Origin: a virus
Lineage: Duplodnaviria > Heunggongvirae > Uroviricota > Caudoviricetes
Virus record (IMG/VR): IMGVR_UViG_3300001528_000017
Span: 1-64,000 of that record
Length of the DNA: 64,000 nt
Direction: 5' to 3' (one strand)
Shown: positions 24,883 through 39,337 of the stretch, one piece after another
Layout: each line of letters begins with the position of its first letter
Position numbering within the stretch: position 1 is the first letter of the stretch
Notes under the pieces: generated by a model
Databases searched by the model: none
The model's input: the letters and a program-made list of their open reading frames with translations, nothing else
What the model was told of the DNA's origin: nothing
Program-made: the position numbers and the translations under genes

Positions 24883-24999
24883 AGAAAAACCGTGTGTGCG
24901 TTTTTTTTTTTACAAGTGATAGTCACTAAGTTACGAAGTTCACATGATAATGCAATGAATTAGAATGTATGTAGTGAATTGTAAGTGACTTTAGAGTAG

Positions 25000-25115
25000 G
25001 AGAGAGAAGAGGACTCGAACCTCTACCACGGAAACCCAAATTCTCTGCTTACGGCTTGGTAAGTGCAAAACCTTGCACTAATGCGACGTGTGCTACCATT
25101 ACACCATCTCTCTCT
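25000..25115 (-). ncRNA. aberrant tRNA-like element E1 (about 115 nt): 7-bp terminal stem, D-arm, T-arm, 60-nt internal region with hairpins
   Basis: AGAGAGA/TCTCTCT terminal stem, GTGT-AATGGTA-GCAC D-arm, AGAGG-TTCGAGT-CCTCT T-arm. No recognisable anticodon arm. Confidence 0.45.
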
Positions 25116-25117
25116 AG

Positions 25118-25192
25118 GGGACAGGGTTGGAGTCAAACCAACGATTTACAGCTTAGACTACTGTAGCTCCTTATCCACGGAGTTGCCTGTCC
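25118..25192 (-). tRNA. diverged tRNA-Arg(TCT)-like paralog with non-canonical anticodon loop (G33 or 9-nt loop)
   Basis: GGACAGG/CCTGTCC acceptor, CTCC/GGAG D-stem, TACAG-TAGTCTAAG-CTGTA anticodon arm. Resembles the bona fide tRNA-Arg(TCT) at 29361-29432. Confidence 0.4.
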
Positions 25193-25198
25193 ATTGTT

Positions 25199-25317
25199 AG
25201 CTACTAATATGAATCTCACAATTACAAGTTGTGCGCTCTAACCACTGAGCTAATCTTCCGATATTGGTAGAAAATATAGGAGTCGAACCTATGCTTAATG
25301 TGTTTTTGTAAGTAGCT
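25199..25317 (-). ncRNA. circularly permuted tRNA-like module flanked by a long terminal helix (YrlA / Y-RNA-like candidate)
   Basis: Order on the minus strand: terminal strand AGCTACT, T-arm ATAGG-TTCGACT-CCTAT, acceptor-like stem ATTTTCT/GGAAGAT closed by a 9-nt loop, D-arm GCTC-AGTGGTTA-GAGC, stem-loop CACAA-CTTGTAA-TTGTG, terminal strand AGTAGCT pairing with the 5' end. Confidence 0.4.
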
Positions 25318-25322
25318 ATTTG

Positions 25323-25432
25323 CGGCGGAGCTGGGAGTCGAACCCAGATTTTCAAATTTGACATATTTGCGTTAATAAATTTGATGTTGTAAGTAACTAA
25401 ACAGATACTATTTCCGTTTAACTACTCCGCCT
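25323..25432 (-). ncRNA. tRNA-Asp(GTC)-like gene with a roughly 36-nt insertion between D-arm and anticodon stem
   Basis: GGCGGAG/CTCCGCC acceptor, CAAAT-ATGTCAA-ATTTG anticodon arm, CTGGG-TTCGACT-CCCAG T-arm. Insert carries ACTTACAA and ends ...TTAACG. Confidence 0.45.
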
Positions 25433-25439
25433 TATTTGT

Positions 25440-25564
25440 GGGGAGGGCTGGACTCGAACCAGCAATTTCAAAATCCTAATTTTTGCGTGTTTACCTGAAT
25501 TTTTGAGATAGTATTGTAAGTGACTCAAGTCACTCAGTAAATTACTACTTTCACTACCTCCCCA
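25440..25564 (-). ncRNA. tRNA-Leu(TAG)-like element with a roughly 50-nt insertion (hairpin GTGAC-TTGA-GTCAC plus ACTTACAA)
   Basis: GGGGAGG/CCTCCCC acceptor, CAAAA-ATTAGGA-TTTTG anticodon-like arm, GCTGG-TTCGAGT-CCAGC T-arm. No GG in the D-loop. Confidence 0.4.
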
Positions 25565-25880
25565 TAATGACAGTATAAAAGCCATCCGTTGTACACCGTT
25601 ACTTAAACTATCTGTCAGTTGGCTCCTCAATTAGAGGATACTCATACCTCGTGTATGTGTATGCCAGTTTTAGTAGAGCTGCCCTTACTCAAACTCTTCT
25701 GTTGCACCATTGTCTGTGGGCACCACATGAACTCCTTTTACCTAGAAACTTGCTAGCAGCTAGAAGGACTTATTATAAGTTCATTGGCAGACGGTATTGT
25801 CTAGGTCACTTGCTTACCTTCGTCAATATAAGCAATAAAAACATGGCTACGAATTTCAAAGATTTGTAAGTGACCTCTTG

Positions 25881-25999
25881 GGGGACAGATGGGACTCGAA
25901 CCCATAACCTTAAGAATTGCAATCTCACGTTAAAGAAGGAATAGTAAGTGTCTGAAAGACACTCAAGTAAACTACTCTATCCAATTGAGTTACTGTCCC
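25881..25999 (-). ncRNA. tRNA-Cys(GCA) gene interrupted by a 44-nt insertion at position 26/27
   Basis: Removing GTTTACTTGAGTGTCTTTCAGACACTTACTATTCCTTCTTTAACG leaves a canonical 73-nt tRNA: GGGACAG, ACTC-AATTGGATA-GAGT, TGAGA-TTGCAAT-TCTTA, ATGGG-TTCGAGT-CCCAT, CTGTCCC. Confidence 0.5.
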
Positions 26000-26011
26000 C
26001 ATGTTGTTTTG

Positions 26012-26133
26012 CGGGGAGTGAAAGAATCGAACTTCCACTTCTGGATTGTGTCCCAGAAAATTGTAAAAGATGATATTGTATGTGAGCTACATTCACACAA
26101 TACAATCGGGCCTAACCAATGCCCAAACTCCCC
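26012..26133 (-). ncRNA. aberrant tRNA-like element E6 with about 50-nt insertion
   Basis: GGGGAGT/ACTCCCC terminal stem, GGGC-ATTGGTTAG-GCCC D-arm, GGAAG-TTCGATT-CTTTC T-arm. Insert contains CACATACAATATC. Confidence 0.4.
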
Positions 26134-26151
26134 TTGATTTGGATACTAATG

Positions 26152-26224
26152 AATTACATCTTGGAATCGAACCAAGTACACTCGGATTATCAATCTGATG
26201 CTCTACCAAATGAGCTAATGTATT
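26152..26224 (-). tRNA. tRNA-Ile(GAT)-like paralog (compact, with acceptor and anticodon-stem mismatches)
   Basis: GCTC-ATTTGGTA-GAGC D-arm, TCAGA-TTGATAA-TCCGA anticodon arm, CTTGG-TTCGATT-CCAAG T-arm. Preceded by the ACTTACAATATC motif. Confidence 0.45.
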
Positions 26225-26298
26225 TTGATATTGTAAGTATCCATTAGTGGATGAGTGAGGTATCACCCTCACCCACCCTAGTTCTTCGGAAAAAGGTC

Positions 26299-28116
26299 CT
26301 ACAGAGTATTCTCTCTTACGAGTTCATACCTGTTTGACCTGTAGATAGACTGCAATGGAGTATAGACATCAAAGACATCCATATCCTTGAAGTTTGTCAG
26401 GAGCTGCTCAATCTGTGCAGGGTTAGATGGTATGTACATGAGGTTGTCAATACCACTGAACCTCTCAGCATTCACTCTGTCATTCCTTGTCACATCAATG
26501 GCAACAATGTAAGGTCTGAACCCTAACACTGATTCACATTGCCTGAGCAAATCATTGACAGAAGCTTCAGGGCTAGGAAGGTTATTCCACTCTCCATCAG
26601 ATATGATGGTCCACACAGGATAAGACTTGAGGGCATCTACCAATTGAGGCATACCTACCAAGGCTTCCTTGATGCTTCTAATGAGAGTAGAAATGTCAGT
26701 CCAGCCACTACCAAAGGTAGCCTGACAGAAAGAGCTGATGTTCTTGTAGTTCTCCATGAAGCTCTTAGTGGGGTCCACAAATGGCTTATGCACAGACTTA
26801 GTAGCAGCTCTTCTCATAATAGAATTAGGAGAATCACTTGCCTCTTTGTCCATGTAGCTAAACCACCTTGTGTTCCTACCAAAGAAGCCTAATAGGTTCC
26901 TACCATCATCATCAGGGTTCTTCACCAGACATACGGCAGCCAAGAAAGATGCAAATGCAAAAGGACTACCACTCATAGAGCCTGAATCATCAATGATGAC
27001 AAGGCTGTTATAAGGCAAGTTTACCTTATTCTGAATGAAAGCCTCAAGCTTGAGAGTATCTACTCTACCACTCATAATCTGGTCATAGAGTTCATTGAAG
27101 CTGGTAGCACCAACATTCACCTTAGCCTGCTTCTTAACCTTTTGCAGCTTTTCCACATCCTCGGTGCTTGCTTGGCCTTGTCTTACCTTCTCTTCAAGAA
27201 CTCTCTGTTCAGCCTGCTTCTGCTCCTTGTACTTCTCCCACTCAGTGTACCATGCAGCAAGGTTGGGCCACTTCAGGGATTCGTCAGTGTTCTTTGAGTA
27301 TTGAACTCTGTTCTTTACTCTGAACCTTGCCTGAGAGGGGAGTTTGTCGAGCCAATCAATGAACTGAGTCTTGTCAAACTCCTTGATTTTACCCGTAGAG
27401 AATAACACAGATTCCAGTGAACCATTGTACTCTTTTCTCCAATCTCTGTAACCCTTAAAGTTGGCATAAGCACCCTTTACAGTGTGCTCCCAACCCATCA
27501 GCTTGGATAACTGAATGAGGAATGCAGTTTTGTGCTCCATGACCTGCTTGGTCTGAGGGAGCATTTGCTTGTGACCAGCTCTCTTGCTAAGTCTAGGTAT
27601 AGTGAGGAACTTAGCCACCAACATTTTATTGAAGGGGTTAGTACCATTGATTACACCATACACAAACTCCACAAGTTTGTCCCTGTACCAAGTGTCTGCG
27701 AATATGTCATACACCTTCAAGACCTTAGCTCCCTTGGTCTGAACTCTAGACCTAAAGAGCAAGTCAAAGCAGGTATATTCATTGAACAGACCCTTGTTGA
27801 GGAACTGAACAAACTGGTCCCTATGGTTTACTCTCAGCCAGTCAAAGATGACATAAAAGCCAGCTCTGTTAGCATTACCACCAGAGTCCTTCTTCACACC
27901 CTTGAAGATATTATGCTGTCTAGCAGTAATATCTCCTACAGAGAACAGGATTGAGAAGAACATCTGACGTTGCTCCTTGCTGTCCTTTACTTCATTCCAA
28001 CAGGCATCAAGCAAAGACTCTGTAATTGTACCACCTACACTCTGAAAGAGCTTAAGGCAGTTACGCAGTCCATAAAAAGGATTGCTGTTACTCTTGTTTA
28101 ACTTAACTTCTACCAT
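26299..28116 (-). CDS. vWA-domain protein with N-terminal alpha-helical domain; candidate Ro60/Rsr-like (TROVE + vWA)
   Basis: MIDAS motifs LVIIDDSGSMSG (DxSxS), FGSGWTD, ISDGEW. N-terminal LKLFQSVGGTIT resembles the Ro60 FLCFGSEGGTYY motif. ORF track starts at a TTG (28122); first ATG is at 28114-28116. Confidence 0.5.
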   Translation of the reverse strand: MVEVKLNKSNSNPFYGLRNCLKLFQSVGGTITESLLDACWNEVKDSKEQRQMFFSILFSVGDITARQHNIFKGVKKDSGGNANRAGFYVIFDWLRVNHRDQFVQFLNKGLFNEYTCFDLLFRSRVQTKGAKVLKVYDIFADTWYRDKLVEFVYGVINGTNPFNKMLVAKFLTIPRLSKRAGHKQMLPQTKQVMEHKTAFLIQLSKLMGWEHTVKGAYANFKGYRDWRKEYNGSLESVLFSTGKIKEFDKTQFIDWLDKLPSQARFRVKNRVQYSKNTDESLKWPNLAAWYTEWEKYKEQKQAEQRVLEEKVRQGQASTEDVEKLQKVKKQAKVNVGATSFNELYDQIMSGRVDTLKLEAFIQNKVNLPYNSLVIIDDSGSMSGSPFAFASFLAAVCLVKNPDDDGRNLLGFFGRNTRWFSYMDKEASDSPNSIMRRAATKSVHKPFVDPTKSFMENYKNISSFCQATFGSGWTDISTLIRSIKEALVGMPQLVDALKSYPVWTIISDGEWNNLPSPEASVNDLLRQCESVLGFRPYIVAIDVTRNDRVNAERFSGIDNLMYIPSNPAQIEQLLTNFKDMDVFDVYTPLQSIYRSNRYELVRENTL

Positions 28117-28167
28117 TTTCAAGATGATTTTGATTGTGAATTGTAAGTAACAATATGCCCGAACTAA

Positions 28168-28611
28168 TCAAAAGTCCTCATCAGCATCAATAGCCGTAAG
28201 CTGTGCTTCAAGCTCCTTGATTCTGTCTTCAGGAGTCTTCTGAGATTCCTTGAGTTCCTTGAGCTGTGCTGTGAGTTCAGCCTTCTTAGCCTTAGCCTCA
28301 GCCACCTCCATATTGTGCCTCTTCCAGCCAATGATGAGGTTGACCAACTCCTTCCTTCTCTTGAGGGCTTCAAGCTTCTCCTGCTGATAGTCTGTTGCCA
28401 CCCATTCATCCTGCTTCTCAAGGTCTTCAATCTGCTTTGTAATAGCAAGCCTGATACCATTGAGAGTGTTGATGGTCTGTGTGTGCATCAGCTCAACAAT
28501 GTTGAGGGGCTGACCCATCTTTGTTGTAATAGCCTCATTAGCTACCAACATAGCAAATGCCAGTTCTTTCATCTTGGCATAATGCTCTTTTGTGAAATTG
28601 ATTTTTGCCAT
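28168..28611 (-). CDS. hypothetical coiled-coil protein
   Basis: 147-aa ORF, heptad-rich E/K/L sequence. Confidence 0.4.
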   Translation of the reverse strand: MAKINFTKEHYAKMKELAFAMLVANEAITTKMGQPLNIVELMHTQTINTLNGIRLAITKQIEDLEKQDEWVATDYQQEKLEALKRRKELVNLIIGWKRHNMEVAEAKAKKAELTAQLKELKESQKTPEDRIKELEAQLTAIDADEDF

Positions 28612-28651
28612 TGTTTTAAGCTTATTAAACGGTGAATAAATAAAAATATCG

Positions 28652-29136
28652 TGGAGCTAGAGGGAGTCGAACCCTCGTCCAAACAATCTCAGAATAAGAA
28701 ATGGGTACACGCTTTTGTTGTTTAAGCACAACTGCTAGGGATGACAGATTTGTCACCAGTCCACCACTCTATTTTGAGAAAACAGAGAAAACACCTTCCT
28801 CACATATTGCATACCCATACCTTGTGTTGCCACTACGCATGTTGCCCCAGTTATTGGAAGGTTGAGATAGTGGCTTACCTTCTCCGTGCATCAGAGCTTA
28901 TTTAGCACTAGGACCTCGGACTACCAATCTTAGTTTCCTTTCAGATGTTTCTATCTCATTTGCCCACTTTCTGTTTCAGGTAATGGGCTACCTAGCACTT
29001 ACGCAGCTAATCTGATAACAGTGCTGCTGGCAGGAGTCATTACAACTACCTTAGCATTTATTGGTTTGCCATTTTCAGGCATGACTGCCTGCGTGATTTC
29101 TTACCCCTCCTTTGCTGTCAAAACCAGAATAGCCCC
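28652..29136 (-). ncRNA. ssrA: tmRNA (SsrA), phage-encoded
   Basis: 5' end GGGGCTATTCTGGTTTTGAC matches the tmRNA consensus GGGGCUGAUUCUGGAUUCGAC. 3' end GAGGG-TTCGACT-CCCTC-TAGCTCCA matches the tmRNA T-arm/acceptor (...AGCUCCA). Internal frame ends ...TTA GCT GCG TAA (LAA-stop). Confidence 0.6.
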
Positions 29137-29197: not shown

Positions 29198-29270
29198 GTA
29201 GGGAGTGAAGGACTTGAACCTCCAACCTTGAATGTATAAGATTCCTGCGCTAACCATTGCGCCAACTCCC
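29198..29270 (-). tRNA. tRNA with anticodon TAT (Ile, AUA-reading)
   Basis: GGGGAGT acceptor, GCGC-AATGGTTA-GCGC D-arm, GGAAT-CTTATAC-ATTCA anticodon arm, GGAGG-TTCAAGT-CCTTC T-arm. Confidence 0.55.
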
Positions 29271-29360
29271 CATGAACCTACCGATATTCCCATACAGGCA
29301 GGCTCTACAACTAAATCTTTGCCTAAAATCTACCTTTTTACCTTAAACGAAACCTAAGAG

Positions 29361-29432
29361 TACCCCAACTAGGACTCGAACCTAGATTTACAGCTTAGAA
29401 GGCTGTTACTCTATCCCTTGAGTTATTGGGGC
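29361..29432 (-). tRNA. tRNA-Arg(TCT)
   Basis: ACTC-AAGGGATA-GAGT D-arm, ACAGC-CTTCTAA-GCTGT anticodon arm, CTAGG-TTCGAGT-CCTAG T-arm. G1.U72. Confidence 0.6.
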
Positions 29433-29579
29433 ATACTGACTCCTACAAACCTTAACACCGCCACACCCTTCACTATACATCCAATTCCTTGAATGTCATA
29501 GCTACTTCCTCGGAGTCAGGGACTACCTTGTGTCTCTGCACTTCCACAAAACTAGGTGGTTGAGAGTTTACCAGTAGTG

Positions 29580-29653
29580 TACTGCAAGTGGGAATCGAAC
29601 CCACAATCTCCACCTTGAAAGGGTGACGAGTTGACCAATTCCTCTATTGCAGC
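29580..29653 (-). tRNA. tRNA-Glu(TTC)
   Basis: TCACC-CTTTCAA-GGTGG anticodon arm, GTGGG-TTCGATT-CCCAC T-arm, GCTGCAA/TTGCAGT acceptor. Confidence 0.55.
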
Positions 29654-29655: not shown

Positions 29656-30798
29656 TCAGGCTACCTTATTTATCTTTTGATAGCCCTTACCTATTACTAT
29701 ATGAGGCATCCACTCATCCATATTATTCAGTACGAATTTCTTCCTTACCTTATAGGATTTATAGTGTCTCATCAGTCCTAGGTAGGAGTTTACTGAAGAG
29801 ATAAAGTCATCCATCTTGTCCTCATTATAATGTGAGTACCTAGATGATACTTTGTTGTACATCTTACAGATGGCTCTCCCTCCACAGTATATCCTGTTTT
29901 GTTTGATTATTGCTCCAACAAATGTAACACCCCTTGAACATTCTTGGATATAAAGTTTGTCAGGGTGTACAGTTAAGAGCAGTTGTTCAGTAGCAAATGC
30001 CTTCAATAGTGGAATACAAGATTTCAGATACTCTAAATTCTCATGTCCTACTACGAAGTCATCTGCATACCTCACAATTACCAAGCCTAAGCTCTCACAG
30101 TAATGGTCAAAGGGCGTGAGATAGAAATTGGCAAACATCTGTGATGTTAGATTGCCAATAGCTAATCCCTTGTCCTTACCAACATAGAATAAGCTCTTGC
30201 TTGGTGGAAGTTTCTCCCATAATGATATATTTCCTACTTTAATGCAATTGTCCTCAGGATGATGAAGAATAATCATTCTACATAACCACCTTAAACAGTT
30301 TTTCTTTCTGTTTTCAGGATAGTTCTGTACAATGAAACTATCTAGATTCTCACATAACAATTGTTTGTCAATAGTCATAAAGAAACTTTGATAGTCTAAC
30401 TTAGCTATATAATAGGGTTTCGTGTAATGCTCACTCTTCTCATCTAATATGGAGGATAGTTTCTGCACACCATGTAGTGTGCCTCTACCCTTCAGACAGG
30501 AGAATGTGTTTGCTATGAAATAACTTTCAAAGTAAGGCTCTAACTCCCTTATTACTAAGTGGTGAACTATTCTATCCCTAAAGTCAGCAGCAAACACTTC
30601 CCTGACTTTTAGGTCAGTGATAATGAATGCTTTTGATACACCTATTTCATAAGTGTAGGAATTGATTTCATCAGTCAGCTTAAGTAAATTAGTTACCTTA
30701 TCTACACAAAACTCTTTAGCTCCTATAGTATTCTTCTTATGCTTTAGGCAATCATCAAATGCAGTAAATACCTCATCATAAGTGAAACTATAATCCAT
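29656..30798 (-). CDS. DGR reverse transcriptase (DGR1)
   Basis: YADDFVV catalytic motif and DGR-type LAIGNLTSQ (IGxxxSQ) motif. 380 aa. Adjacent TR. Confidence 0.8.
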   Translation of the reverse strand: MDYSFTYDEVFTAFDDCLKHKKNTIGAKEFCVDKVTNLLKLTDEINSYTYEIGVSKAFIITDLKVREVFAADFRDRIVHHLVIRELEPYFESYFIANTFSCLKGRGTLHGVQKLSSILDEKSEHYTKPYYIAKLDYQSFFMTIDKQLLCENLDSFIVQNYPENRKKNCLRWLCRMIILHHPEDNCIKVGNISLWEKLPPSKSLFYVGKDKGLAIGNLTSQMFANFYLTPFDHYCESLGLVIVRYADDFVVGHENLEYLKSCIPLLKAFATEQLLLTVHPDKLYIQECSRGVTFVGAIIKQNRIYCGGRAICKMYNKVSSRYSHYNEDKMDDFISSVNSYLGLMRHYKSYKVRKKFVLNNMDEWMPHIVIGKGYQKINKVA

Positions 30799-30823
30799 AG
30801 CATATTGAAAATAATACGAATCG

Positions 30824-30940
30824 CAGAAGCATAAAAAGGAACAATTCTGTTAGTGTTGTTCTTGTTGTTCCAATTACAGTTCACTCTGTTTCTGTTAAGG
30901 TTACAGTTCCATGAGTTGTTAGAATTGTTCTCAGAGCAAC
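30824..30940 (-). repeat. DGR1 template repeat (TR)
   Basis: About 117-bp near-repeat of 31473-31589. On the coding (minus) strand the TR carries A where the VR varies. Confidence 0.75.
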
Positions 30941-31089
30941 TTATGCCATTGAATGTGAGCTAGTCACACTTTAACGACCTGTGAAACACAGACTGTATGG
31001 CATCCTTCCACAATAATGTACCATTTGTCCCCAGTGTTGAACCAACCATTGAAGATTGTTATGCTCTACACGCACCTTGAGGGAATACA

Positions 31090-31278
31090 CTATGAAATCA
31101 TATCGAATAGGGCAATTAGTCTCTTTCTAGGTTCAATTATGTTGAATTTACCCTTCAAGAGTAATGCCCCATCCTCTATGCACTCATCTAACAATGTTCC
31201 CAAGGTAATCAAATCATTGTAGAGTTTATCAGAGTCAAGGCTGTAATTCCTACCCTTACAGGCAAGTTTTACAGGCAA
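31090..31278 (-). CDS. small ORF between VR and TR (possible short accessory/Avd-like)
   Basis: 62-aa ORF in the canonical avd position. Too short for a typical Avd. Confidence 0.25.
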   Translation of the reverse strand: MPVKLACKGRNYSLDSDKLYNDLITLGTLLDECIEDGALLLKGKFNIIEPRKRLIALFDMIS

Positions 31279-31410
31279 GTTTTACAGCAATCTTGACATC
31301 TAATAATATATTGATTATTCTATCTCCCTCATTGTACCTATTATATCTAGGCATGTGTTTGATAGCTTTCCTCAATTCTCTACTAATGAAATCTATTTCC
31401 TTGTAAACAT

Positions 31411-32457
31411 CTATATAGTTGATTTCCATACTTTACACAATGTATTACTCAGACTCTTTTTTTTTGCTTGTGTGGAAGCATAAAAAGGAACAACCCTGTA
31501 AGTGTAGTACTTGTAGCCCCAATAACAGAACACTCTGCCGCTGTAAAGGGCACAGTCCCATGAGCAGTCAGAATAGCCCTCAGAGCAAGACCAATACCAA
31601 TAGTCAGTGTTGATAATGAAACCAAGACCAGTTATCTTGTGTGCTGCATTGAGGTATGCTGCATTATCTAACATAGTCATAGTCTCACCAAGACTGCCAA
31701 AGTACCAATCTTCCTTCTTATCCTTGCGATAGTTGATACATCTTTCAAAGGCACCAAATCTCTCCTTGTCCTTACCCTTTATTTGCTTCTTGTATTGGGC
31801 AGTAACCTCTCTACCATTGAATAACTTCATGGCTTTCTCCCATGATGTATGTTCTCCAATCTTAGAGTTACGGTCAGTATCCCATACTTCTCTGAACATT
31901 TCCAAAGCACAGATAATGGGGCTTCCATCTTCATAGAATCCACATACTATGCCTCTTACTTTGGTCTTAGCAATCTTCTTGGTAGGATGAACAAAGGAGT
32001 CATCAATCATCTGATAATCACCAACTCTGATGCCATTCTTCTCAGGAGCACTCTCAAGTATCTCCTTAAAGAGCTGAATGTCAACGGATTCATTGGTACC
32101 CTTTTCTTCAGTGATAAGCATTTGCCTAGCAGCTATCTCAGTTCCAAATGAGTCAATCCAGTATTCAGTACCCTTAGGAATAATAGCCTTGGCACAATAG
32201 TTGCCATAGTCATCACTCTCACTCAGCTTGGCATGAATTACACCACCTCCCATGCTAGATATTTCTCTATCATAGAGGTCTTTGCACTCATAACTGATGT
32301 AAGGAGTATCAGGCTGTGCAACCATCAACTTGCCCAATGTAACAGGTGTTCCCTGACATGGACTTTCATATCCCCTGCTTGTCTGCTTGAGATACTTTAA
32401 TACCACAATGTCCCTCTTGGCAACTCGTGGTTGTTTGTCTCTAATGTATAAACACAT
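31411..32457 (-). CDS. DGR1 target protein with C-terminal C-type-lectin-like variable region
   Basis: VR at the 3' end. C-terminus DYWYWSCSEGYSDCSWDCALYSGRVFCYWGYKYY is aromatic/Cys-rich like DGR CLec VRs. Confidence 0.7.
   Translation of the reverse strand: MCLYIRDKQPRVAKRDIVVLKYLKQTSRGYESPCQGTPVTLGKLMVAQPDTPYISYECKDLYDREISSMGGGVIHAKLSESDDYGNYCAKAIIPKGTEYWIDSFGTEIAARQMLITEEKGTNESVDIQLFKEILESAPEKNGIRVGDYQMIDDSFVHPTKKIAKTKVRGIVCGFYEDGSPIICALEMFREVWDTDRNSKIGEHTSWEKAMKLFNGREVTAQYKKQIKGKDKERFGAFERCINYRKDKKEDWYFGSLGETMTMLDNAAYLNAAHKITGLGFIINTDYWYWSCSEGYSDCSWDCALYSGRVFCYWGYKYYTYRVVPFYASTQAKKKSLSNTLCKVWKSTI
31473..31589 (-). repeat. DGR1 variable repeat (VR)
   Basis: Aligns to the TR with mismatches only at TR adenines (coding strand). 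Confidence 0.75.
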
Positions 32458-32492
32458 AAGCGGTAAAAAGTTATTAAGTTGTTAAACAATAG

Positions 32493-32564
32493 TACCCTCA
32501 CCAAGAATCGAACTTGGATTTAATGTTTAGGAAACACTTGTTCTATCCATTGAACTATGAGGGC
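32493..32564 (-). tRNA. tRNA-Arg(CCT)
   Basis: GTTC-AATGGATA-GAAC D-arm, AGTGT-TTCCTAA-ACATT anticodon arm, CCAAG-TTCGATT-CTTGG T-arm. Confidence 0.55.
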
Positions 32565-36251: not shown

Positions 36252-36322
36252 TGGCTTTTGGTGTAATGGTAACACGGAAGATTTTGGTCCTTCTGTTATA
36301 GGTTCGAGTCCTATAAAGCCAA
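36252..36322 (+). tRNA. tRNA-Gln(TTG)
   Basis: GTGT-AATGGTA-ACAC D-arm, anticodon loop TTTTGGT, ATAGG-TTCGAGT-CCTAT T-arm. Confidence 0.55.
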
Positions 36323-36327
36323 CAAAT

Positions 36328-36401
36328 GCAGCCATCCTGCTAACAGGTTAGGCAACCACACTCTCAATGTGGAAATCTGAGTTCGAGTCTCAGTGGCTGT
36401 A
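36328..36401 (+). tRNA. tRNA-Glu(CTC)
   Basis: CCACA-CTCTCAA-TGTGG anticodon arm, CTGAG-TTCGAGT-CTCAG T-arm. Confidence 0.5.
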
Positions 36402-36405
36402 CAAT

Positions 36406-36477
36406 AGGGTATGTAGTGTAATGGTTAGCACACTAGACTGTCTATCTTGTAGAGGGGTTCGAGTCCCACATATCCTG
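36406..36477 (+). tRNA. tRNA (anticodon uncertain, possibly GTC/Asp)
   Basis: GTGT-AATGGTTA-GCAC D-arm, GGTTCGAGTCCC T-arm, GGGTATG/CATATCC acceptor. Confidence 0.4.
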
Positions 36478-36623
36478 CAACCCAACATAATCTAACAGAA
36501 AAGTCCACTAAGCACAGCGGTGTAAGTGGCAATTGGAGAGAGAACTCAGTGGGACTGGGACTAGTCTTGAAAACTAAGGGAGCTGTAAAAGGCTTGGGGG
36601 TCGGGACCTCCTTTCTCCGCACT

Positions 36624-36818
36624 ATGGTAACAATATTAAGAAAAGAAGGTTGGGCATTAAACCCAAATGACAAAGTGGTAAATGGGGTCTTAAAGATGAT
36701 TGAGAACAACAATGGAGAATGCCCATGCCACAATGAGAGTGAAGACAAACATTGCCCATGTAGTGACTACAGAGAAAAGAACGAATGTCATTGCAACTTA
36801 TATGTTAAAATAGGGTAA
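36624..36818 (+). CDS. ferredoxin-thioredoxin-reductase catalytic-subunit-like mini-protein (64 aa)
   Basis: ECPCHNESEDKHCPCSDYREKNECHCNLYV reproduces the FTR CPC...CPC...CHC[LM]F/Y signature. Embedded in the tRNA array; stop overlaps the tRNA-Pro start. Confidence 0.5.
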   Translation: MVTILRKEGWALNPNDKVVNGVLKMIENNNGECPCHNESEDKHCPCSDYREKNECHCNLYVKIG

Positions 36819-36885
36819 TGGCCTAATTGGTTAAGGTTCTTGCTTTGGGAGCAAGAGAGTGTGAGTTCGAGTCTCACTTACCCTA
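36812..36885 (+). tRNA. tRNA-Pro(TGG)
   Basis: CTTGC-TTTGGGA-GCAAG anticodon arm, GTGAG-TTCGAGT-CTCAC T-arm, AGGGTAA/TTACCCT acceptor. Confidence 0.55.
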
Positions 36886-36964
36886 CAAGGAAACCCTATC
36901 CAACCTAGTAGATGACTTAGAGGTGAACAAGGGGGTTTTGCTACAAACCTAAAATGTAGCATTT

Positions 36965-37050
36965 GGAGGTGAGAAGCCTAGAGGTAAGGTCTTGGTTTGC
37001 TAAACCAAAGGTTCGCATTAGTGGATGAGTTTCGATTACTCCTGCCTCCG
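36965..37050 (+). tRNA. tRNA-Ser(GCT), type II
   Basis: TTGGT-TTGCTAA-ACCAA anticodon arm, long variable arm, GGAGGTG/TGCCTCC acceptor. 86 nt. Confidence 0.5.
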
Positions 37051-37052
37051 CT

Positions 37053-37193
37053 ATGAGTGAAGGATTATACAAGAAGTTAGAAGACGAGTTCTACAGAAGT
37101 AACCACCCTAAATATAGGAAGTACTTCAAGGAATGGATTACCCACTTAACTACTGCACAAGTACTATGGTGGGGACAACATTGGGGACTATGA
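37053..37193 (+). CDS. mini-ORF (46 aa) in the tRNA array
   Basis: ATG immediately after tRNA-Ser. Stop overlaps the next ATG (ATGA). Confidence 0.3.
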   Translation: MSEGLYKKLEDEFYRSNHPKYRKYFKEWITHLTTAQVLWWGQHWGL

Positions 37194-37351
37194 AATGGAA
37201 GATAGTAGATAACGAGAAAGCTAAAGAGCTTCACCTAAAAGAGTTAAGTGGTACTCTAGTAATAAACCTAGCAGATATACCATCTGGTATGAGCATAGAG
37301 GAGTACTTGAACTTTATACAGGAGAAGAATGTAGTAATAATGGGGTTGTAG
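37133..37351 (+). CDS. small protein (72 aa; alternative start at 37190 gives 53 aa)
   Basis: ORF-track ORF. Its 3' end overlaps the 5' part of tRNA-Ala. Confidence 0.35.
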   Translation: MDYPLNYCTSTMVGTTLGTMKWKIVDNEKAKELHLKELSGTLVINLADIPSGMSIEEYLNFIQEKNVVIMGL

Positions 37352-37415
37352 TTCATCAGGCTAGAACATCTGCTTTGCAAGCAGAAGGTAGTGGGTTCGA
37401 GACCCACCTTCTCCA
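37342..37415 (+). tRNA. tRNA-Ala(TGC) with G3.U70 and two U.U acceptor mismatches
   Basis: GTTC-ATCAGGCTA-GAAC D-arm, TCTGC-TTTGCAA-GCAGA anticodon arm, GTGGG-TTCGAGA-CCCAC T-arm. Confidence 0.45.
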
Positions 37416-37477
37416 CTCTGACTTTCATTGTTTTCATAATGTTAATGGCCTAGCCAGAGGGTTAAATCTGGCACATT

Positions 37478-37550
37478 GCTTCTTAGTTCAGTGGTTAAGA
37501 ATAGTTCCCTTACAAGGAAAAGGTCATAGGTTCGATTCCTATAGAAGCAA
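37478..37550 (+). tRNA. tRNA-Val(TAC)
   Basis: TGCTTCT/AGAAGCA acceptor, anticodon loop CTTACAA, ATAGG-TTCGATT-CCTAT T-arm. Confidence 0.5.
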
Positions 37551-37554
37551 CAAT

Positions 37555-37628
37555 GGGGATATAGCACAATTGGTTAGTGCATCTGACTGTTAATCAGAAG
37601 GTTCTAGGTTCGAGTCCTAGTATGCCCG
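37555..37628 (+). tRNA. tRNA-Asn(GTT)
   Basis: GCAC-AATTGGTTA-GTGC D-arm, TCTGA-CTGTTAA-TCAGA anticodon arm, CTAGG-TTCGAGT-CCTAG T-arm. Confidence 0.55.
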
Positions 37629-37633
37629 CAAAT

Positions 37634-37705
37634 TGGTTCTTGGTGGAATGGTAACACAACTGACTCTGACTCAGGAGATTGGGGGTTCAAGTCCCTCAGA
37701 GCCAA
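37634..37705 (+). tRNA. tRNA-Gln(CTG)
   Basis: CTGA-CTCTGAC-TCAG anticodon arm, GGGGG-TTCAAGT-CCCTC T-arm. Confidence 0.45.
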
Positions 37706-37711
37706 CTACAT

Positions 37712-37783
37712 TGGTCCTTAGTGTCAATGGTAGCACGATGGTCTCCAAAACCATAAGAGAGGGTTCGAGTCCTTCAGGGTCTG
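37712..37783 (+). tRNA. tRNA-Trp(CCA)
   Basis: ATGGT-CTCCAAA-ACCAT anticodon arm, GAGGG-TTCGAGT-CCTTC T-arm. Acceptor pairing imperfect. Confidence 0.45.
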
Positions 37784-37792
37784 CAATTATAT

Positions 37793-37866
37793 AGGTATGT
37801 ATATCAGTTGGTTAGATAGCCACCCTGATAAGGTGGAAGTCGTAGGTTCAAGCCCTACCATACCTA
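37793..37866 (+). tRNA. tRNA-Ile(GAT)
   Basis: AGGTATG/CATACCT acceptor, CCACC-CTGATAA-GGTGG anticodon arm, GTAGG-TTCAAGC-CCTAC T-arm. Confidence 0.6.
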
Positions 37867-37868
37867 CT

Positions 37869-37941
37869 GTGTTAGTAGCTCAATTGGCAGAGCGATGGGT
37901 TGTGGTTCCATTGGTTGTGGGTTCAAGTCCCATCTAACACC
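37869..37941 (+). tRNA. tRNA-His(GTG)
   Basis: GTGTTAG/CTAACAC acceptor, GCTC-AATTGGCA-GAGC D-arm, anticodon loop TTGTGGT, GTGGG-TTCAAGT-CCCAT T-arm. Confidence 0.6.
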
Positions 37942-37991
37942 CTATAGCCTAGGCAAAACAAGAGTCCCTGTATATCAAACTCTTGTGGCTT

Positions 37992-38065
37992 CTCCAGTTG
38001 CCTGAGTGGTCTAAAGGAGCAGTCTGCAAAACTGTTATTCGTTGGTTCAAATCCAACACTGGAGT
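37992..38065 (+). tRNA. tRNA-Cys(GCA)
   Basis: CTCCAGT/ACTGGAG acceptor, GCAGT-CTGCAAA-ACTGT anticodon arm, GTTGG-TTCAAAT-CCAAC T-arm. Confidence 0.5.
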
Positions 38066-38213
38066 CCACAATCGTTCTTAAATTTATTGTATTATGGAAG
38101 CAATTACATTCTTAATGTATGGCTTATTAGCCGTAGCTGGCATTGTCAGCACCTTAGATTGCATGAGGAGAGGATAATCCCTCCCTCATTTCAGGGAATG
38201 TGATTGAAGAAAA

Positions 38214-38284
38214 GTCTCTATAGCTGAATGGTAAAGCAACTGCCTCTTAAGCAGTGGAGTCCAAGTTCGAGTCTTGGTGGAGAC
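38214..38284 (+). tRNA. tRNA-Lys(CTT)
   Basis: ACTGC-CTCTTAA-GCAGT anticodon arm, CCAAG-TTCGAGT-CTTGG T-arm. Confidence 0.55.
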
Positions 38285-38289
38285 ACTAT

Positions 38290-38363
38290 ACCTTCTTAGC
38301 TCAGTTGGTTAGAGCAATAGGCTTTTAACCTATGGGGCCAGAGTTCGAGTCTCTGAGGAGGTA
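38290..38363 (+). tRNA. tRNA-Lys(TTT)
   Basis: GCTC-AGTTGGTTA-GAGC D-arm, ATAGG-CTTTTAA-CCTAT anticodon arm, CAGAG-TTCGAGT-CTCTG T-arm. Confidence 0.6.
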
Positions 38364-38460
38364 CATCAAAAAGTCTGTCAGGGGTTAGGTGGAGAGTGCT
38401 GCCCCCTGTGATAAAGAAACACCTATCAGCACAAGAGCAGTTAAGGGCTTCTGCTCACTT

Positions 38461-38542
38461 GGGAGTACTTTAATGTGGTGAATTAGTGCAGACTGTAAAT
38501 CTGTTGCCCTTGGGCTAATCGGGTTCAATTCCTTATACTCCC
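38461..38542 (+). tRNA. tRNA-Tyr(GTA), type II
   Basis: GGGAGTA/TACTCCC acceptor, CAGA-CTGTAAA-TCTG anticodon arm, variable arm GCCC-TTG-GGC. Confidence 0.5.
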
Positions 38543-38547
38543 ACTAT

Positions 38548-38620
38548 GGACACTTGGCAGATGTGGTATATGCACTGGACTGAAAATCCAGCTAACGAGG
38601 TTCAACTCCTTGAGTGCCCA
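38548..38620 (+). tRNA. tRNA-Phe(GAA)
   Basis: CTGGA-CTGAAAA-TCCAG anticodon arm, CGAGG-TTCAACT-CCTTG T-arm. Confidence 0.55.
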
Positions 38621-38628
38621 CTACTTAT

Positions 38629-38709
38629 GGGAAGATGGTGGAATTAGGCAGACACGCTAGTCTTAGGAACTAGTACTTCGGTGTGAGGGTTCGAGTCCCT
38701 CTCTTCCTA
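38629..38709 (+). tRNA. tRNA-Leu(TAG), type II
   Basis: CTAGT-CTTAGGA-ACTAG anticodon arm, variable arm hairpin, GAGGG-TTCGAGT-CCCTC T-arm. Confidence 0.55.
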
Positions 38710-38719
38710 CAAACTAAAT

Positions 38720-38803
38720 ACTCTAGTGGTGGAACTGGCATACACGATGGTCTTAAACACCATTGCCCTTTGCGGATTGAGAGTTCAAATCTCTCCTAGA
38801 GTA
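38720..38803 (+). tRNA. tRNA-Leu(TAA), type II
   Basis: ACTCTAG/CTAGAGT acceptor, ATGGT-CTTAAAC-ACCAT anticodon arm, GAGAG-TTCAAAT-CTCTC T-arm. Confidence 0.55.
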
Positions 38804-38865
38804 CTAAAAATAGTTAAAATTATGCAGAAAATAAGCAAAATATTTGGTAGTCTCAATTATTTTAC

Positions 38866-38877
38866 TTAACTTTGCAC
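38866..38877 (+). promoter_or_regulatory. Bacteroidetes-type promoter (TTAACTTTGCAC)
   Basis: Conserved motif about 20 nt upstream of ATG 38896. Confidence 0.45.
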
Positions 38878-38895
38878 CCAGAAACGAATAAAACA

Positions 38896-39172: not shown

Positions 39173-39337
39173 CTCTAATAAAGAGGATAGTACTAGTGTA
39201 AGACTCAACGTAACTTAAAGGCTTTGTGAAATATCATGTAAGTTTAGCCCTTTTGGGTGTCGTATTACTCACCTTAGTCAATAGAGGATGGTCAAGGATT
39301 GACAAACTTTGCTCTAAGTTTTCAAAATAGAGCACTC

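What the first reader, a model, noticed from the sequence alone, without database searches (positions are those of the whole stretch)
25000..26230. tRNA-like genes interrupted by 35-50 nt insertions sharing a conserved hairpin plus ACUUACAA motif
- **Interrupted tRNAs:** at least three elements become canonical tRNAs when an internal segment is removed, and a fourth (E6, 26012-26133) has a comparable insert without resolving to a clean tRNA. These are Cys-GCA at 25881-25999, Asp-GTC-like at 25323-25432, and Leu-TAG-like at 25440-25564.
- **Insert position and content:** the insert sits between the D-arm and the anticodon stem (position 26/27), not in the anticodon loop. Inserts share ACTTGAGTG-hairpin-CACTTAC(A/T)A and end in AACG.
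- **Motif elsewhere:** the same motif (plus strand TTGTAAGT) recurs 9 times in spacers of this array and in the 5' leader of the Ro60-like gene (28137).
- **Other elements:** compact but mutated paralogs (Arg-TCT-like with G33; Ile-GAT-like with mismatches) carry no insert.

Possibilities:
1. Protein-spliced mini-introns at a non-canonical site, unprecedented for bacteria or phages.
2. A miniature mobile element targeting tRNA genes.
3. A decaying duplicate tRNA array.
4. Deliberately tRNA-mimicking RNAs.
Basis: seen in the sequence. Interest (0 to 1): 0.7.

Follow-up and report, generated by a model that had tools for sequence, protein, structure and literature searches.

The report
Phage Ro60-linked tRNA-mimic RNA array
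The "interrupted tRNA genes" are real, but they look like one form of a conserved array of about ten small tRNA-mimicking RNAs that share a 7-base-pair helix followed by UACAA and sit beside a very divergent phage Ro60-like gene, so they are most likely a new variant of the Ro60/Y-RNA system rather than tRNAs with introns.

Summary
Rfam's tRNA model finds 109-142-nt tRNA-like hits at the stated coordinates. Deleting the inserts gives ARAGORN tRNA-Cys(GCA), -Asp(GTC) and -Leu(TAG).

The motif is half of an RNA module: a 7-bp helix (5'-[A/U]GNNACU paired with AGUNNC[U/A]) followed by UACAA. Across the window plus 30 related phage loci, 137 of 183 motif sites have a perfect 7-nt complement, against 3.2 expected. 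The two middle pairs covary.

The module has several topologies:
- a capped hairpin inside tRNA-like bodies (the "inserts"; the position varies);
- a terminal helix closing an unpermuted tRNA-like RNA, a circularly permuted YrlA-type one, or a ~50-nt domain;
- a helix enclosing the start codon of the adjacent 605-aa gene.

Best reading (about 0.6): Y-RNA-like tRNA mimics carrying a new protein-docking module, with autoregulation of the Ro60-like mRNA. Nothing supports the mini-intron, mobile-element or decaying-pseudogene readings. This is a new variant of a known kind; binding, RNA ends and function are inferred, not shown.

The parts
26299..28116 (-). 605-aa Ro60-like gene: an N-terminal helical part plus a vWA domain with the MIDAS motif DDSGSMSGS.
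28086..28152 (-). Leader module of the Ro60-like mRNA. The 5' arm UGUUACU (28146-28152) is followed by UACAA (28141-28145). The 3' arm AGUAACA (28086-28092) lies in codons 9-11. The start codon (28114-28116) is inside the loop.
   Evidence: Every locus with the motif has a complement to the 6-nt core GUUACU downstream. The 7th pair is C-G or U-A in most loci and is mismatched in four (L002, L003, L015, L016). All 22 sequences with Ser-Asn here (21 loci plus the window) use AGT AAC, while neighbouring synonymous sites vary. The partner is relocated in L018 and L019, and lies in the 5'UTR with a changed arm (GGACACU/AGUGUCC) in L026.
26141..26242 (-). Unit A. A terminal 7-bp helix (GGAUACU 26236-26242 with AGUAUCC 26141-26147) plus UACAA encloses an unpermuted tRNA-like RNA (Ile-GAU form, 26152-26224).
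   Evidence: ARAGORN and Rfam. In the RNAalifold analysis of 20 orthologues the closing helix has 0 broken pairs and covaries at 3 pairs. In close relatives the arms are AGACACU/AGUGUCU, two compensatory changes.
26012..26133 (-). A tRNA-like body carries an extra arm after the D-arm: an outer stem (26100-26107 with 26059-26068) and an inner module hairpin UGUGA-loop-UCACA followed by UACAA (26076-26097).
   Evidence: Family alignment A5; coordinates. Orthologues in L003, L013 and L016 carry the canonical AGU...ACU|UACAA. The window's clade has the last pair flipped to U-A/A-U.
25881..25999 (-). Unit C. A Cys-GCA tRNA-like body with a 45-nt insert at position 26/27 (25928-25972). The insert contains the hairpin AGUGUCU (25957-25963) / AGACACU (25947-25953) followed by UACUA (25942-25946).
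   Evidence: Rfam 40.7 bits. ARAGORN calls tRNA-Cys after excision. 7-bp hairpin.
25804..25875 (-). Unit D. A small RNA with no tRNA-like part: the terminal helix GGUCACU (25869-25875) / AGUGACC (25804-25810) plus UACAA closes a 58-nt domain.
   Evidence: Analogous small units are present in most related loci.
25439..25563 (-). Unit E. A Leu-UAG-like class-I tRNA body with an insert carrying the hairpin AGUGAC (25529-25534) / GUCACU (25519-25524) followed by UACAA (25514-25518).
   Evidence: ARAGORN calls tRNA-Leu(TAG) after excision. Hairpin. Nearly identical in L032 and L033, but the anticodon loop changes AUUAGGA to AGCAGGA in L033.
25323..25431 (-). Unit F. An Asp-GUC tRNA-like body with a 39-nt insert in the D-loop after GG. 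The insert has the hairpin AGUAUCU (25403-25409) / AGUUACU (25392-25398), with one U-U mismatch, followed by UACAA (25387-25391).
   Evidence: Rfam 51.4 bits with the alignment shown. ARAGORN calls tRNA-Asp after excision. The orthologue in L015 is 88% identical, keeps GUC, and has compensatory T-stem changes.
25199..25317 (-). Unit G. A circularly permuted tRNA-like RNA of YrlA type. In order: 5' arm AGCUACU (25311-25317), UACAA, T-arm (25276-25292), 7-bp acceptor-like hairpin with loop ACCAAUAUC (25253-25275), D-arm (25235-25250), anticodon arm CUUGUAA (25217-25233), 3' arm AGUAGCU (25199-25205).
   Evidence: A family of 23 sequences has 97.9% of cells paired, against 77% in shuffles and 36-43% with slid partners. 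The covariation score is 0.56 against 0.16, reached by 0 of 500 shuffles. All four helices show compensatory changes.
25118..25192 (-). Unit H. A compact Arg-UCU-like tRNA with G33 and no module, wedged between units G and I.
   Evidence: Manual parse and RNAfold cloverleaf. Nearly identical in L032 and L033. It forms part of Rfam hit 25118-25259.
25000..25113 (-). Unit I. A tRNA-like body (acceptor, D-arm, T-arm) whose anticodon-arm region is replaced by a 56-nt insert. The insert has the hairpin AGUGCAA (25073-25079) / UUGCACU (25062-25068) followed by UACCA (25057-25061).
   Evidence: Rfam 41.5 bits. In L033 the hairpin is AGUGAGA/(U)CUCACU followed by UACAA, within otherwise identical flanks, which is compensatory.
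24921..24990 (-). Unit J. A small RNA: the terminal helix AGUCACU (24984-24990) / AGUGACU (24921-24927) plus UACAA closes a 56-nt domain. It is the last unit before the next protein gene.
   Evidence: Identical in L033 and absent in L032.
28168..28611 (-). 147-aa coiled-coil gene immediately upstream of the Ro60-like gene. It may be an operon partner. Whether it belongs to the system is inferred from synteny only.
   Evidence: tblastn finds it directly upstream of the Ro60-like gene in 29 loci. It has no informative family.

Best explanation
The region encodes an array of about ten small structured RNAs that are co-inherited with a highly divergent phage Ro60-like (TROVE-like plus vWA) protein. 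They are its Y-RNA-like partners.

The shared module. Every RNA carries a 7-bp helix, 5'-(A/U)GNNACU-3' paired with 5'-AGUNNC(U/A)-3'. The ACU strand runs straight into single-stranded UAC(A/C/U)A.

What the module is combined with. In most units it is joined to a tRNA-like domain, in interchangeable topologies:
- a terminal helix around an ordinary cloverleaf;
- a terminal helix around a circularly permuted cloverleaf with a closed acceptor hairpin, as in bacterial YrlA;
- a loop-capped hairpin planted in the D-loop, at position 26/27, or in place of the anticodon loop.

Inferred mechanism:
- The helix-UACAA module docks the Ro60-like protein. It is the functional counterpart of the stem plus GNCGAA/CGAA motif of known Y RNAs.
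- The tRNA-like domain presents a tRNA shape to a tRNA-binding effector, enzyme or nuclease.
- The copy of the module that encloses the gene's own start codon lets the protein repress its own translation once the RNAs are saturated.

What is shown: the module, its base pairing, the tRNA-like and permuted folds, the synteny, and the Ro60-like fold.
What is inferred: that the RNAs are made as separate species, that this protein binds the module, the autoregulation, and the biological role.
For: - Helix. 137 of 183 motif sites in the window plus 30 loci have a perfect Watson-Crick 7-mer partner, against a mean of 3.15 (maximum 9) in 200 flank shuffles. The helix is exactly 7 bp, and 24 different arm sequences all have matching partners.
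- Family covariation. The Ile-like family has 0 broken cells in the closing helix and 3 covarying pairs. The permuted family has 97.9% of cells paired and a covariation score of 0.56 against 0.16, reached by 0 of 500 shuffles.
- Close relatives (91-92% protein identity) show compensatory arm and hairpin changes inside otherwise identical flanks.
- Localisation. In the 64-kb window, the only sites where the ACU-ending motif has a helix partner lie at 24985-28147 on the minus strand. The one other flagged site (18474, + strand) has an arm that does not end in ACU.
- Coupling to the gene. All 30 loci found through the protein carry the motif, and nearly all have several copies clustered beside the gene on the same strand. 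In the reverse search, 10 of 54 motif-triplet loci had helices. Eight of those carried the gene in the fetched stretch, one lies on a contig known to carry it, and one stretch was too short to tell. None of the 44 helix-free hits carried the gene.
- Leader helix. It shows covariation, frozen AGT-AAC codons, and relocation of the partner when Ser-Asn is absent.
- Precedent. Phage Ro60 genes with adjacent Y-like RNAs are known (PMC12135203). YrlA is a circularly permuted tRNA mimic found within 4 kb of Ro60 on the same strand, with a short conserved motif near the 5' end (PMC4201824; bioRxiv 10.1101/312249).
- Not ordinary decoders. Anticodon positions 34 and 35 are the most variable columns of an otherwise conserved body. 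Canonical tRNAs for the same anticodons exist elsewhere in the window.
Against: - No experiment or transcript data. RNA ends, expression and protein binding are all unknown.
- The known Ro-binding motif (GNCGAAN0-1G / CGAA) is absent. The Rfam YrlA model does not match: 15 bits against a cut-off of 69 in the window, and nothing in L006.
- Another protein could be the binder, for example the conserved 147-aa neighbour.
- Three window elements keep canonical 7-nt anticodon loops. This also fits tRNAs that still function with an extra arm.
- A test for G-U over A-C mismatches, which would have proved RNA-level pairing on this strand, was inconclusive.
Confidence: 0.6

Rival explanations
1. Processing punctuation. 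The helix-UACAA module is the recognition site of an endoribonuclease, from the phage or the host, that cuts a long operon transcript into individual RNAs. In the 'interrupted' elements the cut would produce nicked or split tRNA-like molecules. No Ro60 binding would be involved.
For: - Units are packed with only about 10 nt between the 3' arm of one and the 5' arm of the next. That leaves no room for separate promoters and implies a polycistronic precursor.
- The module flanks every unit and precedes the coding region.
- A 7-bp helix has the length of an acceptor stem.
Against: - No nuclease gene was recognised beside the array.
- Cutting inside the mRNA leader, next to the start codon, would destroy the mRNA.
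- The capped hairpin form sits in the middle of folded tRNA-like bodies, where punctuation serves no purpose.
- This rival is compatible with protein docking rather than exclusive of it.
Confidence: 0.14
2. Working tRNAs with an extra arm. The Cys-, Asp- and Leu-like elements are aminoacylated and decode. The added hairpin-UACAA arm is tolerated or serves as a regulatory handle.
For: - They have canonical 7-nt anticodon loops with U33 and a purine at 37, intact T- and D-loop elbow nucleotides, and 7-bp acceptor stems.
- The Asp-like element keeps GUC, with compensatory T-stem changes, in a phage whose Ro60-like protein is only 65% identical.
Against: - Canonical tRNAs with the same anticodons are already encoded in the window.
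- The Leu-like element lacks the long variable arm.
- U33 is lost in the L033 orthologue of the Leu-like element, and anticodon triplets switch freely among orthologues of the Ile-like and permuted units.
- A 39-56-nt insertion in the D-loop or at position 26/27 has no known functional precedent (own knowledge).
Confidence: 0.1
3. Protein-spliced mini-introns. The inserts are removed by an endonuclease and a ligase, giving mature tRNAs.
For: In-silico excision gives clean tRNA-Cys, -Asp and -Leu.
Against: - E6 and unit I do not resolve.
- Many orthologues have non-canonical anticodon regions.
- The insert position varies and the boundaries are not conserved. The conserved part is internal and also occurs outside tRNA contexts.
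- No known intron family matches the inserts in Rfam.
- tmRNA in the window points to a bacterial host, which has no BHB endonuclease (own knowledge).
Confidence: 0.05
4. DNA-level signal. ACTTACAA(T) is a promoter for a phage or host RNA polymerase, or an operator. It drives each small gene and the Ro60-like gene.
For: - The motif lies 4-12 nt upstream of tRNA-like 5' ends and 1-25 nt upstream of the ATG.
- TACAAT resembles a -10 hexamer.
Against: - A promoter does not explain the unit-specific, compensating 7-nt complement found 34-116 nt away or in a local hairpin.
- In L017 the motif ends 1 nt before the ATG.
- The motif is absent from every other gene and tRNA cluster in the 64 kb.
- There is no conserved -35 element.
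Confidence: 0.06
5. A decaying duplicate tRNA array, or the footprints of a miniature mobile element.
For: - Units are gained and lost between close relatives.
- There are some mismatches in stems.
Against: - Compensatory substitutions occur in all stems.
- Orthologues are conserved down to 52-65% protein identity of the neighbouring gene.
- The elements are no closer to the genome's canonical tRNAs of the same anticodon than to others.
- Helix sequences are unit-specific, not copies of a single element.
Confidence: 0.03

Closest known systems
Bacterial and phage YrlA-type Y RNAs with Ro60/Rsr (Chen et al. 2014, PMC4201824; YrlA structure, bioRxiv 10.1101/312249)
   Same: - Small RNAs are encoded within a few kb of a Ro60-type gene, on the same strand.
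- The design is modular: a 5'/3' stem with a short conserved motif near the 5' end, plus a tRNA-like domain.
- Unit G and its 23-member family have the YrlA order exactly: stem, T-arm, closed acceptor hairpin, D-arm, stem. That is a circularly permuted tRNA.
- More than one RNA is encoded per locus.
   Different: - The conserved motif is a 7-bp helix plus UACAA, not GNCGAAN0-1G.
- The Rfam YrlA model does not match.
- There are up to about ten RNAs per locus instead of one to four.
- The tRNA-like part also occurs unpermuted, or with the module planted inside it.
- Many units keep a complete anticodon arm.
- A copy of the module wraps the gene's own start codon.
- The protein is too divergent for Pfam TROVE.
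Thermus phage phiLo Ro60 with Yrl1/Yrl2 (PMC12135203; PDB 9L5Y, 9KOP)
   Same: - It is a phage-encoded Ro60 with adjacent Y-like RNAs.
- The RNAs have a terminal 5'-3' stem next to a loop that carries a short conserved single-stranded motif.
   Different: - phiLo has two RNAs, located upstream of the gene. They were picked by their CGAA motif and were not described as tRNA mimics in the passages read.
- Here the RNAs lie downstream, are many, are mostly tRNA-like, and carry UACAA.
- Sequence identity of the proteins is only about 14% in the structural alignment.
tRNA genes with introns, split tRNA genes and permuted tRNA genes (archaeal BHB introns, Nanoarchaeum split tRNAs, Cyanidioschyzon permuted tRNAs; own knowledge)
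   Same: - tRNA-like genes are interrupted at non-canonical positions.
- One element has its 3' half placed before its 5' half.
   Different: - There is no bulge-helix-bulge at the boundaries.
- The host is bacterial (tmRNA is present).
- The conserved element is internal to the insert and also exists without any tRNA.
- Anticodons are not conserved among orthologues.

Membership tests
Y RNA / YrlA (Rfam RF02553) | Encoded within about 4 kb of a Ro60 orthologue and on the same strand. | tested here: met
   The array starts 57 nt downstream of the gene's stop codon, on the same strand. The same arrangement holds in nearly all of the 30 related loci; in L026 the modules lie upstream of the gene. 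The reverse search also leads back to the gene. Caveat: the protein is Ro60-like by fold only.
Y RNA / YrlA (Rfam RF02553) | A conserved Ro-binding motif, GNCGAAN0-1G (CGAA), near the 5' end of the RNA. | tested here: not met
   The conserved 5' motif is (A/U)GNNACU|UACAA. The single GACGAAG in unit D is not conserved in position.
Y RNA / YrlA (Rfam RF02553) | A tRNA-like domain in permuted order (T-arm, closed acceptor stem-loop, D-arm) closed by a stem made of the RNA's 5' and 3' ends. | tested here: met
   Unit G (25199-25317) and 22 relatives. All four helices covary, with 0 of 500 shuffles reaching the observed score.
Y RNA / YrlA (Rfam RF02553) | A score at or above the gathering threshold of the Rfam covariance model. 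| tested here: not met
   The best hit is 15.2 bits against 69, and it spans two neighbouring units. No hit in L006 7800-8900 at E<=10.
Y RNA / YrlA (Rfam RF02553) | Physical association with the Ro60 protein. | not testable with these tools
   Needs RIP, CLIP or EMSA.
Ro60 / TROVE protein | A match to the TROVE domain profile. | tested here: not met
   No TROVE hit for any of 25 family members, even at E<=1. The PDB profile search found no Ro60.
Ro60 / TROVE protein | A C-terminal vWA domain with a MIDAS motif (DxSxS). | tested here: met
   DDSGSMSGS at residues 376-384, invariant in the family. vWA fold hits.
Ro60 / TROVE protein | An overall fold of helical-repeat ring plus vWA, like solved Ro60 structures. 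| tested here: inconclusive
Intron-containing tRNA gene | Removing the insert restores a canonical tRNA. | tested here: inconclusive
   True for Cys, Asp and Leu. False for E6 and unit I and for many orthologues with non-canonical anticodon regions.
Intron-containing tRNA gene | A recognisable splicing signal at the exon-intron boundaries (group I core or bulge-helix-bulge) at a defined position. | tested here: not met
   The inserts are 39-56 nt and match no intron family in Rfam at E<=10. The position varies between elements. The conserved nucleotides are internal.
Canonical decoding tRNA | The anticodon is conserved among orthologues of one tRNA body. | tested here: not met
   The Ile-like family shows GAU, GUU, CAU, UGU, UAU, UCU, GGU, AAU, UUU and CAG on a conserved body. 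Positions 34 and 35 have the highest entropy. The anticodon switches between relatives whose Ro60-like proteins are 91-92% identical to the window's.

The most novel reading that the evidence does not exclude
The chimeric elements are not passive mimics. They are tRNA bodies that are still recognised as tRNAs, with canonical anticodon loops and freely evolving anticodon triplets, and that carry a docking arm for a Ro60-type ring.

The phage would use them in one of two ways:
- to bring an RNA-surveillance or repair protein onto whichever host factor attacks or uses a given tRNA, for example as decoys or sensors for anticodon nucleases;
- alternatively, the module is a cut-and-rejoin site, which would make these the first protein-processed interrupted tRNAs in a bacterial virus.
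Probability: 0.1. Interest if true: 0.85.

Novelty: new variant of a known kind. Interest (0 to 1): 0.6.

Why it matters
Ro60 and Y RNAs are conserved from bacteria to humans, yet what the tRNA-like half of bacterial Y RNAs is for remains unknown. Very few systems exist in which to study it.

This phage lineage is uncultured and currently unannotated. The search found 1229 homologues of the protein, and none of the 120 listed carries a Pfam domain or an informative name. It offers several things:
- A natural set of permutations of one docking module on tRNA-shaped scaffolds.
- A docking motif different from the canonical one.
- An apparent mRNA mimic of that motif, which predicts autoregulation. 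This has not, to my knowledge, been described for Ro60.
- tRNA bodies whose anticodon triplet is the fastest-evolving part.

Practical consequences:
- It would give annotators a way to recognise these genes and RNAs.
- It would stop tRNA finders from reporting spurious intron-containing tRNAs here.
- It would provide directly testable constructs: the helix, UACAA and compensatory mutants.

Tried and rejected
- Nucleotide and protein searches of the annotated phage collection found no relative of the region or of the protein. No curated annotation could be borrowed.
- BFVD gave full-length hits to unnamed ~490-aa viral 'VWFA' proteins. These are suggestive but uninformative.
- The Rfam YrlA model was tried on the window and on a locus with a clean permuted unit. 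It gave no usable hit.
- ARAGORN in intron mode reports spurious intron-containing Ser, Leu, SeC and Gly tRNAs for these elements. I disregarded them.
- A sigma-70 promoter and terminator scan was at or below chance.
- A test for an excess of G-U over A-C mismatches in the helices, meant to prove RNA-level pairing on this strand, had too few informative sites: 3 against 2.
- The scan of one genome per prokaryotic species found a single short MAG contig, so no host could be assigned.
- I first read ACTTACAA(T) as a -10-like promoter. I dropped this when the compensating partner strand was found.
- I first called E6's motif degenerate. The family alignment corrected this.
Full report
WHAT IS THERE

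The finding lies on the minus strand, directly downstream of a 605-aa gene (28116 to 26299). The Rfam tRNA covariance model scores above its gathering threshold for four stretches with large internal insertions: 25323-25431 (51.4 bits), 25881-25999 (40.7), 25000-25113 (41.5) and 25118-25259 (31.8). It also scores an uninterrupted tRNA at 26152-26224. ARAGORN sees only that last one in this region.

When I cut out the inserts, ARAGORN called tRNA-Cys(GCA), tRNA-Asp(GTC) and tRNA-Leu(TAG). E6 (26012-26133) and the 25000-25113 element did not resolve.

Exact ACTTACAA occurs 9 times in 64 kb. Seven of these are on the minus strand between 24979 and 28148. Two one-base variants lie inside inserts.

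THE MOTIF IS HALF OF A HELIX

Thirty related IMG/VR loci were found through the neighbouring protein, at 52-86% identity. All of them carry the motif. In most loci one copy lies 1-25 nt upstream of the gene's ATG, and nearly all have several more clustered beside the gene on the same strand, usually downstream.

The 7 nt ending in the motif's ACT have a perfect Watson-Crick complement nearby at 137 of 183 sites. Flank shuffles gave a mean of 3.15 and a maximum of 9 over 200 trials. With G-U allowed, the count is 154 against about 39.

The helix is exactly 7 bp; neither the outward nor the inward neighbours pair above chance. Its consensus is 5'-(A/U)GNNACU-3' with 5'-AGUNNC(U/A)-3', followed on the ACU strand by invariant UACAA. 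Twenty-four different arm sequences occur, each with its own matching partner. A given arm is kept among orthologous units and differs between paralogous units of one genome.

In the whole window, the only ACU-ending motif sites with a helix partner lie at 24985-28147 on the minus strand. The one other flagged site (18474, + strand) does not end in ACU.

TOPOLOGIES

Type I. The partner lies 34-116 nt downstream, so the helix closes a whole unit. That unit can be:
- a ~50-nt domain with no tRNA features (units D and J);
- an ordinary cloverleaf (unit A, the 'compact Ile-GAT');
- a circularly permuted cloverleaf (unit G, 25199-25317), in the order T-arm, 7-bp acceptor-like hairpin, D-arm, anticodon arm.

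Type II. The partner lies immediately upstream, with a loop of 3-8 nt in most cases. This makes a capped hairpin inside a tRNA-like body.

The insertion point is not fixed:
- position 26/27 in the Cys-like unit and E6;
- inside the D-loop after GG in the Asp-like unit;
- in the 5' side of the D-loop, or in place of the anticodon loop, in unit I and in many relatives.

E6 carries a compensated variant, UGUGA...UCACA|UACAA, set within an outer stem.

COVARIATION

For 20 Ile-like type-I units, RNAalifold predicts the closing helix together with the D, anticodon and T arms. None of the 140 closing-helix cells is broken, and three of its pairs covary.

For 23 permuted units:
- 97.9% of cells are paired, against 77% in column shuffles and 36-43% when partners are slid.
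- The covariation score is 0.56 against 0.16, reached by 0 of 500 shuffles.
- Compensatory changes occur in all four helices.

Two contigs whose Ro60-like proteins are 91-92% identical to the window's show double compensatory changes within otherwise identical sequence. Unit A's arms change from GGAUACU/AGUAUCC to AGACACU/AGUGUCU. Unit I's hairpin changes from AGUGCAA/UUGCACU to AGUGAGA/CUCACU. Whole units are also gained and lost between these contigs.

The tRNA-like bodies are no closer to the window's canonical tRNAs of the same anticodon than to non-cognate ones (59-69% identity in either case). They are therefore neither recent duplicates nor decaying copies.

THE mRNA LEADER

Upstream of the gene, NGUUACU|UACAA pairs with AGUAACN, which lies in codons about 9-11. 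The start codon is inside the loop. The 6-nt core complement is present in every locus that has the motif. The seventh pair is C-G or U-A in most loci and is mismatched in four (L002, L003, L015, L016).

All 22 sequences that encode Ser-Asn at this point (21 loci plus the window) use AGT AAC, while neighbouring synonymous sites vary. Two loci lacking Ser-Asn use an AGUAACU 25 nt further on. In L026, which uses TCA for Ser, the whole stem lies in the 5' UTR and has different, still matching, arms (GGACACU/AGUGUCC).

This is the pattern expected of an RNA structure that gates translation.

THE PROTEIN

- It has no Pfam family, and sequence searches of the PDB found nothing.
- It has a MIDAS motif, DDSGSMSGS.
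- phrog_850 'RNA-binding protein' is matched by 19 of 25 family members.
- An AlphaFold model (pLDDT 76, pTM 0.68) gave only vWA hits with Foldseek.

I take 'Ro60-like' as moderately supported at the fold level and unsupported at the sequence-family level.

COUPLING OF RNA AND GENE

I searched IMG/VR for three suitably spaced ACTTACAA copies and got 54 loci.
- Ten had at least three helix-bearing modules. Eight of these carried the gene in the fetched stretch. One lies on the same contig as L003, which carries it. One stretch was too short to tell.
- The 44 loci without helices were unrelated repeats: LRR-type coding repeats, tandem repeats and iterons. None carried the gene.

A 147-aa coiled-coil gene lies directly upstream of the Ro60-like gene in 29 loci.

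INTERPRETATION

Known Y RNAs are encoded next to Ro60 on the same strand. They have a 5'/3' stem with a short conserved motif near the 5' end. In bacteria and some phages they also carry a tRNA-like domain that is a circularly permuted tRNA with a closed acceptor loop (PMC4201824; bioRxiv 10.1101/312249). Phage Ro60 genes with adjacent Y-like RNAs have been characterised (PMC12135203).

The permuted units here have that architecture. The other units place the same helix-UACAA module on other scaffolds.

I therefore read the array as Y-RNA-like partners of a divergent Ro60-like protein. In this reading, helix-UACAA stands in for the stem plus CGAA motif, the 'interrupted tRNAs' are the internally tagged topology, and the leader copy is an autoregulatory mimic. 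Binding, RNA ends and function are inferred, not shown. Confidence is about 0.6.

It is not a member of Rfam YrlA. That model scores 15 bits against a cut-off of 69 and finds nothing in L006. The canonical motif is also absent.

RIVALS

- A processing-punctuation signal remains possible and is not exclusive of protein docking (about 0.14).
- Working tRNAs with an extra arm (about 0.10) fit the canonical anticodon loops of the Cys-, Asp- and Leu-like units. They fit poorly with four observations: redundancy with canonical tRNAs, loss of U33 in a close relative, a class-I 'Leu' body, and anticodon switching.
- Spliced mini-introns (about 0.05) have only the in-silico excision in their favour.
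- A promoter (about 0.06) cannot explain the compensating partner strand.
- Decay or a mobile element (about 0.03) is contradicted by the covariation.

VERDICT

This is a new variant of a known kind, the Ro60/Y-RNA system.

It has several unusual traits:
- a new docking module;
- up to about ten RNAs per locus;
- three or more topologies, including tRNA bodies with the module inserted;
- an mRNA-leader copy of the module;
- hypervariable anticodon triplets.

Noticed in passing
window 26152-26224 and alignment A3 (20 orthologues); also unit G 25217-25233: In an otherwise conserved tRNA-like body, anticodon positions 34 and 35 are the most variable columns (entropy 1.6 and 1.78 bits). U33, U36, A37 and A38 are kept. 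Orthologues carry GAU, GUU, CAU, UGU, UAU, UCU, GGU, AAU, UUU and CAG. Relatives whose Ro60-like proteins are 91-92% identical to the window's switch between GAU, UGU and UUU. The cause could be neutral drift or diversifying selection.
   Followed up: partly
window 25565-25803 (minus strand): A 240-nt stretch between units D and E has no tRNA-like feature, no module and no Rfam hit. Its last ~60 nt are almost identical in L032 and L033, including the stem UGACAG...CUGUCA. The remainder is only about 60-70% conserved. It is absent from the 30 IMG/VR loci. It may be another RNA.
   Followed up: partly
window 29656-32457: This looks like a diversity-generating retroelement. There is a reverse transcriptase (29656-30798, minus strand; RVT_1, phrog_1423). 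A 114-nt template-like repeat (30826-30939) is 79% identical to a copy at 31475-31588, near the 3' end of ORF 31411-32457. A second RT of the same PHROG lies at 57213-58457, next to a tail protein gene.
   Followed up: partly
window 28649-29136 (minus strand): A phage-encoded tmRNA (Rfam 69.5 bits) lies just upstream of the 147-aa gene and the Ro60-like gene pair. ARAGORN missed it in the window but found tmRNAs in L013, L022 and L029.
   Followed up: no
window 28168-28611 (minus strand): A 147-aa coiled-coil protein of unknown function is conserved immediately upstream of the Ro60-like gene in 29 loci. It is a candidate partner or alternative RNA binder.
   Followed up: partly
window 26255-26272 (minus strand) and equivalent positions in related loci: A strong hairpin with no U-tract (GUGAGG-GUGAUA-CCUCAC) lies between the gene's stop codon and the first RNA unit. 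Relatives have an analogous GGUAUAGGAGG...CCUCCUAUAC hairpin.
   Followed up: no
L032 3138-3461 and L033 3626-3949: Close relatives carry an extra 107-aa ORF between the Ro60-like gene and the RNA array. The window lacks it. Units C+D, F and J are present or absent between these genomes, so the array evolves by gain and loss of whole units.
   Followed up: partly
L001 2036-2276: A group I intron (Rfam Intron_gpI, 99.9 bits) lies about 1 kb upstream of the Ro60-like gene in the closest IMG/VR relative.
   Followed up: no
L044 72-967: An unrelated viral contig has an array of twelve ~75-95-nt repeat units. Each contains (A/G)GACTTACAATTT but has no complementary partner. It is a different, unexplained use of the same octamer.
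   Followed up: no
window 36252-39488 (plus strand), 29198-29653 and 32492-32564 (minus strand): There are 25 canonical tRNA genes outside the array. They include Cys-GCA, Asp-GTC, Leu-TAG, Ile-GAT, Arg-TCT and Thr-TGT. None carries the ACTTACAA motif.
   Followed up: yes
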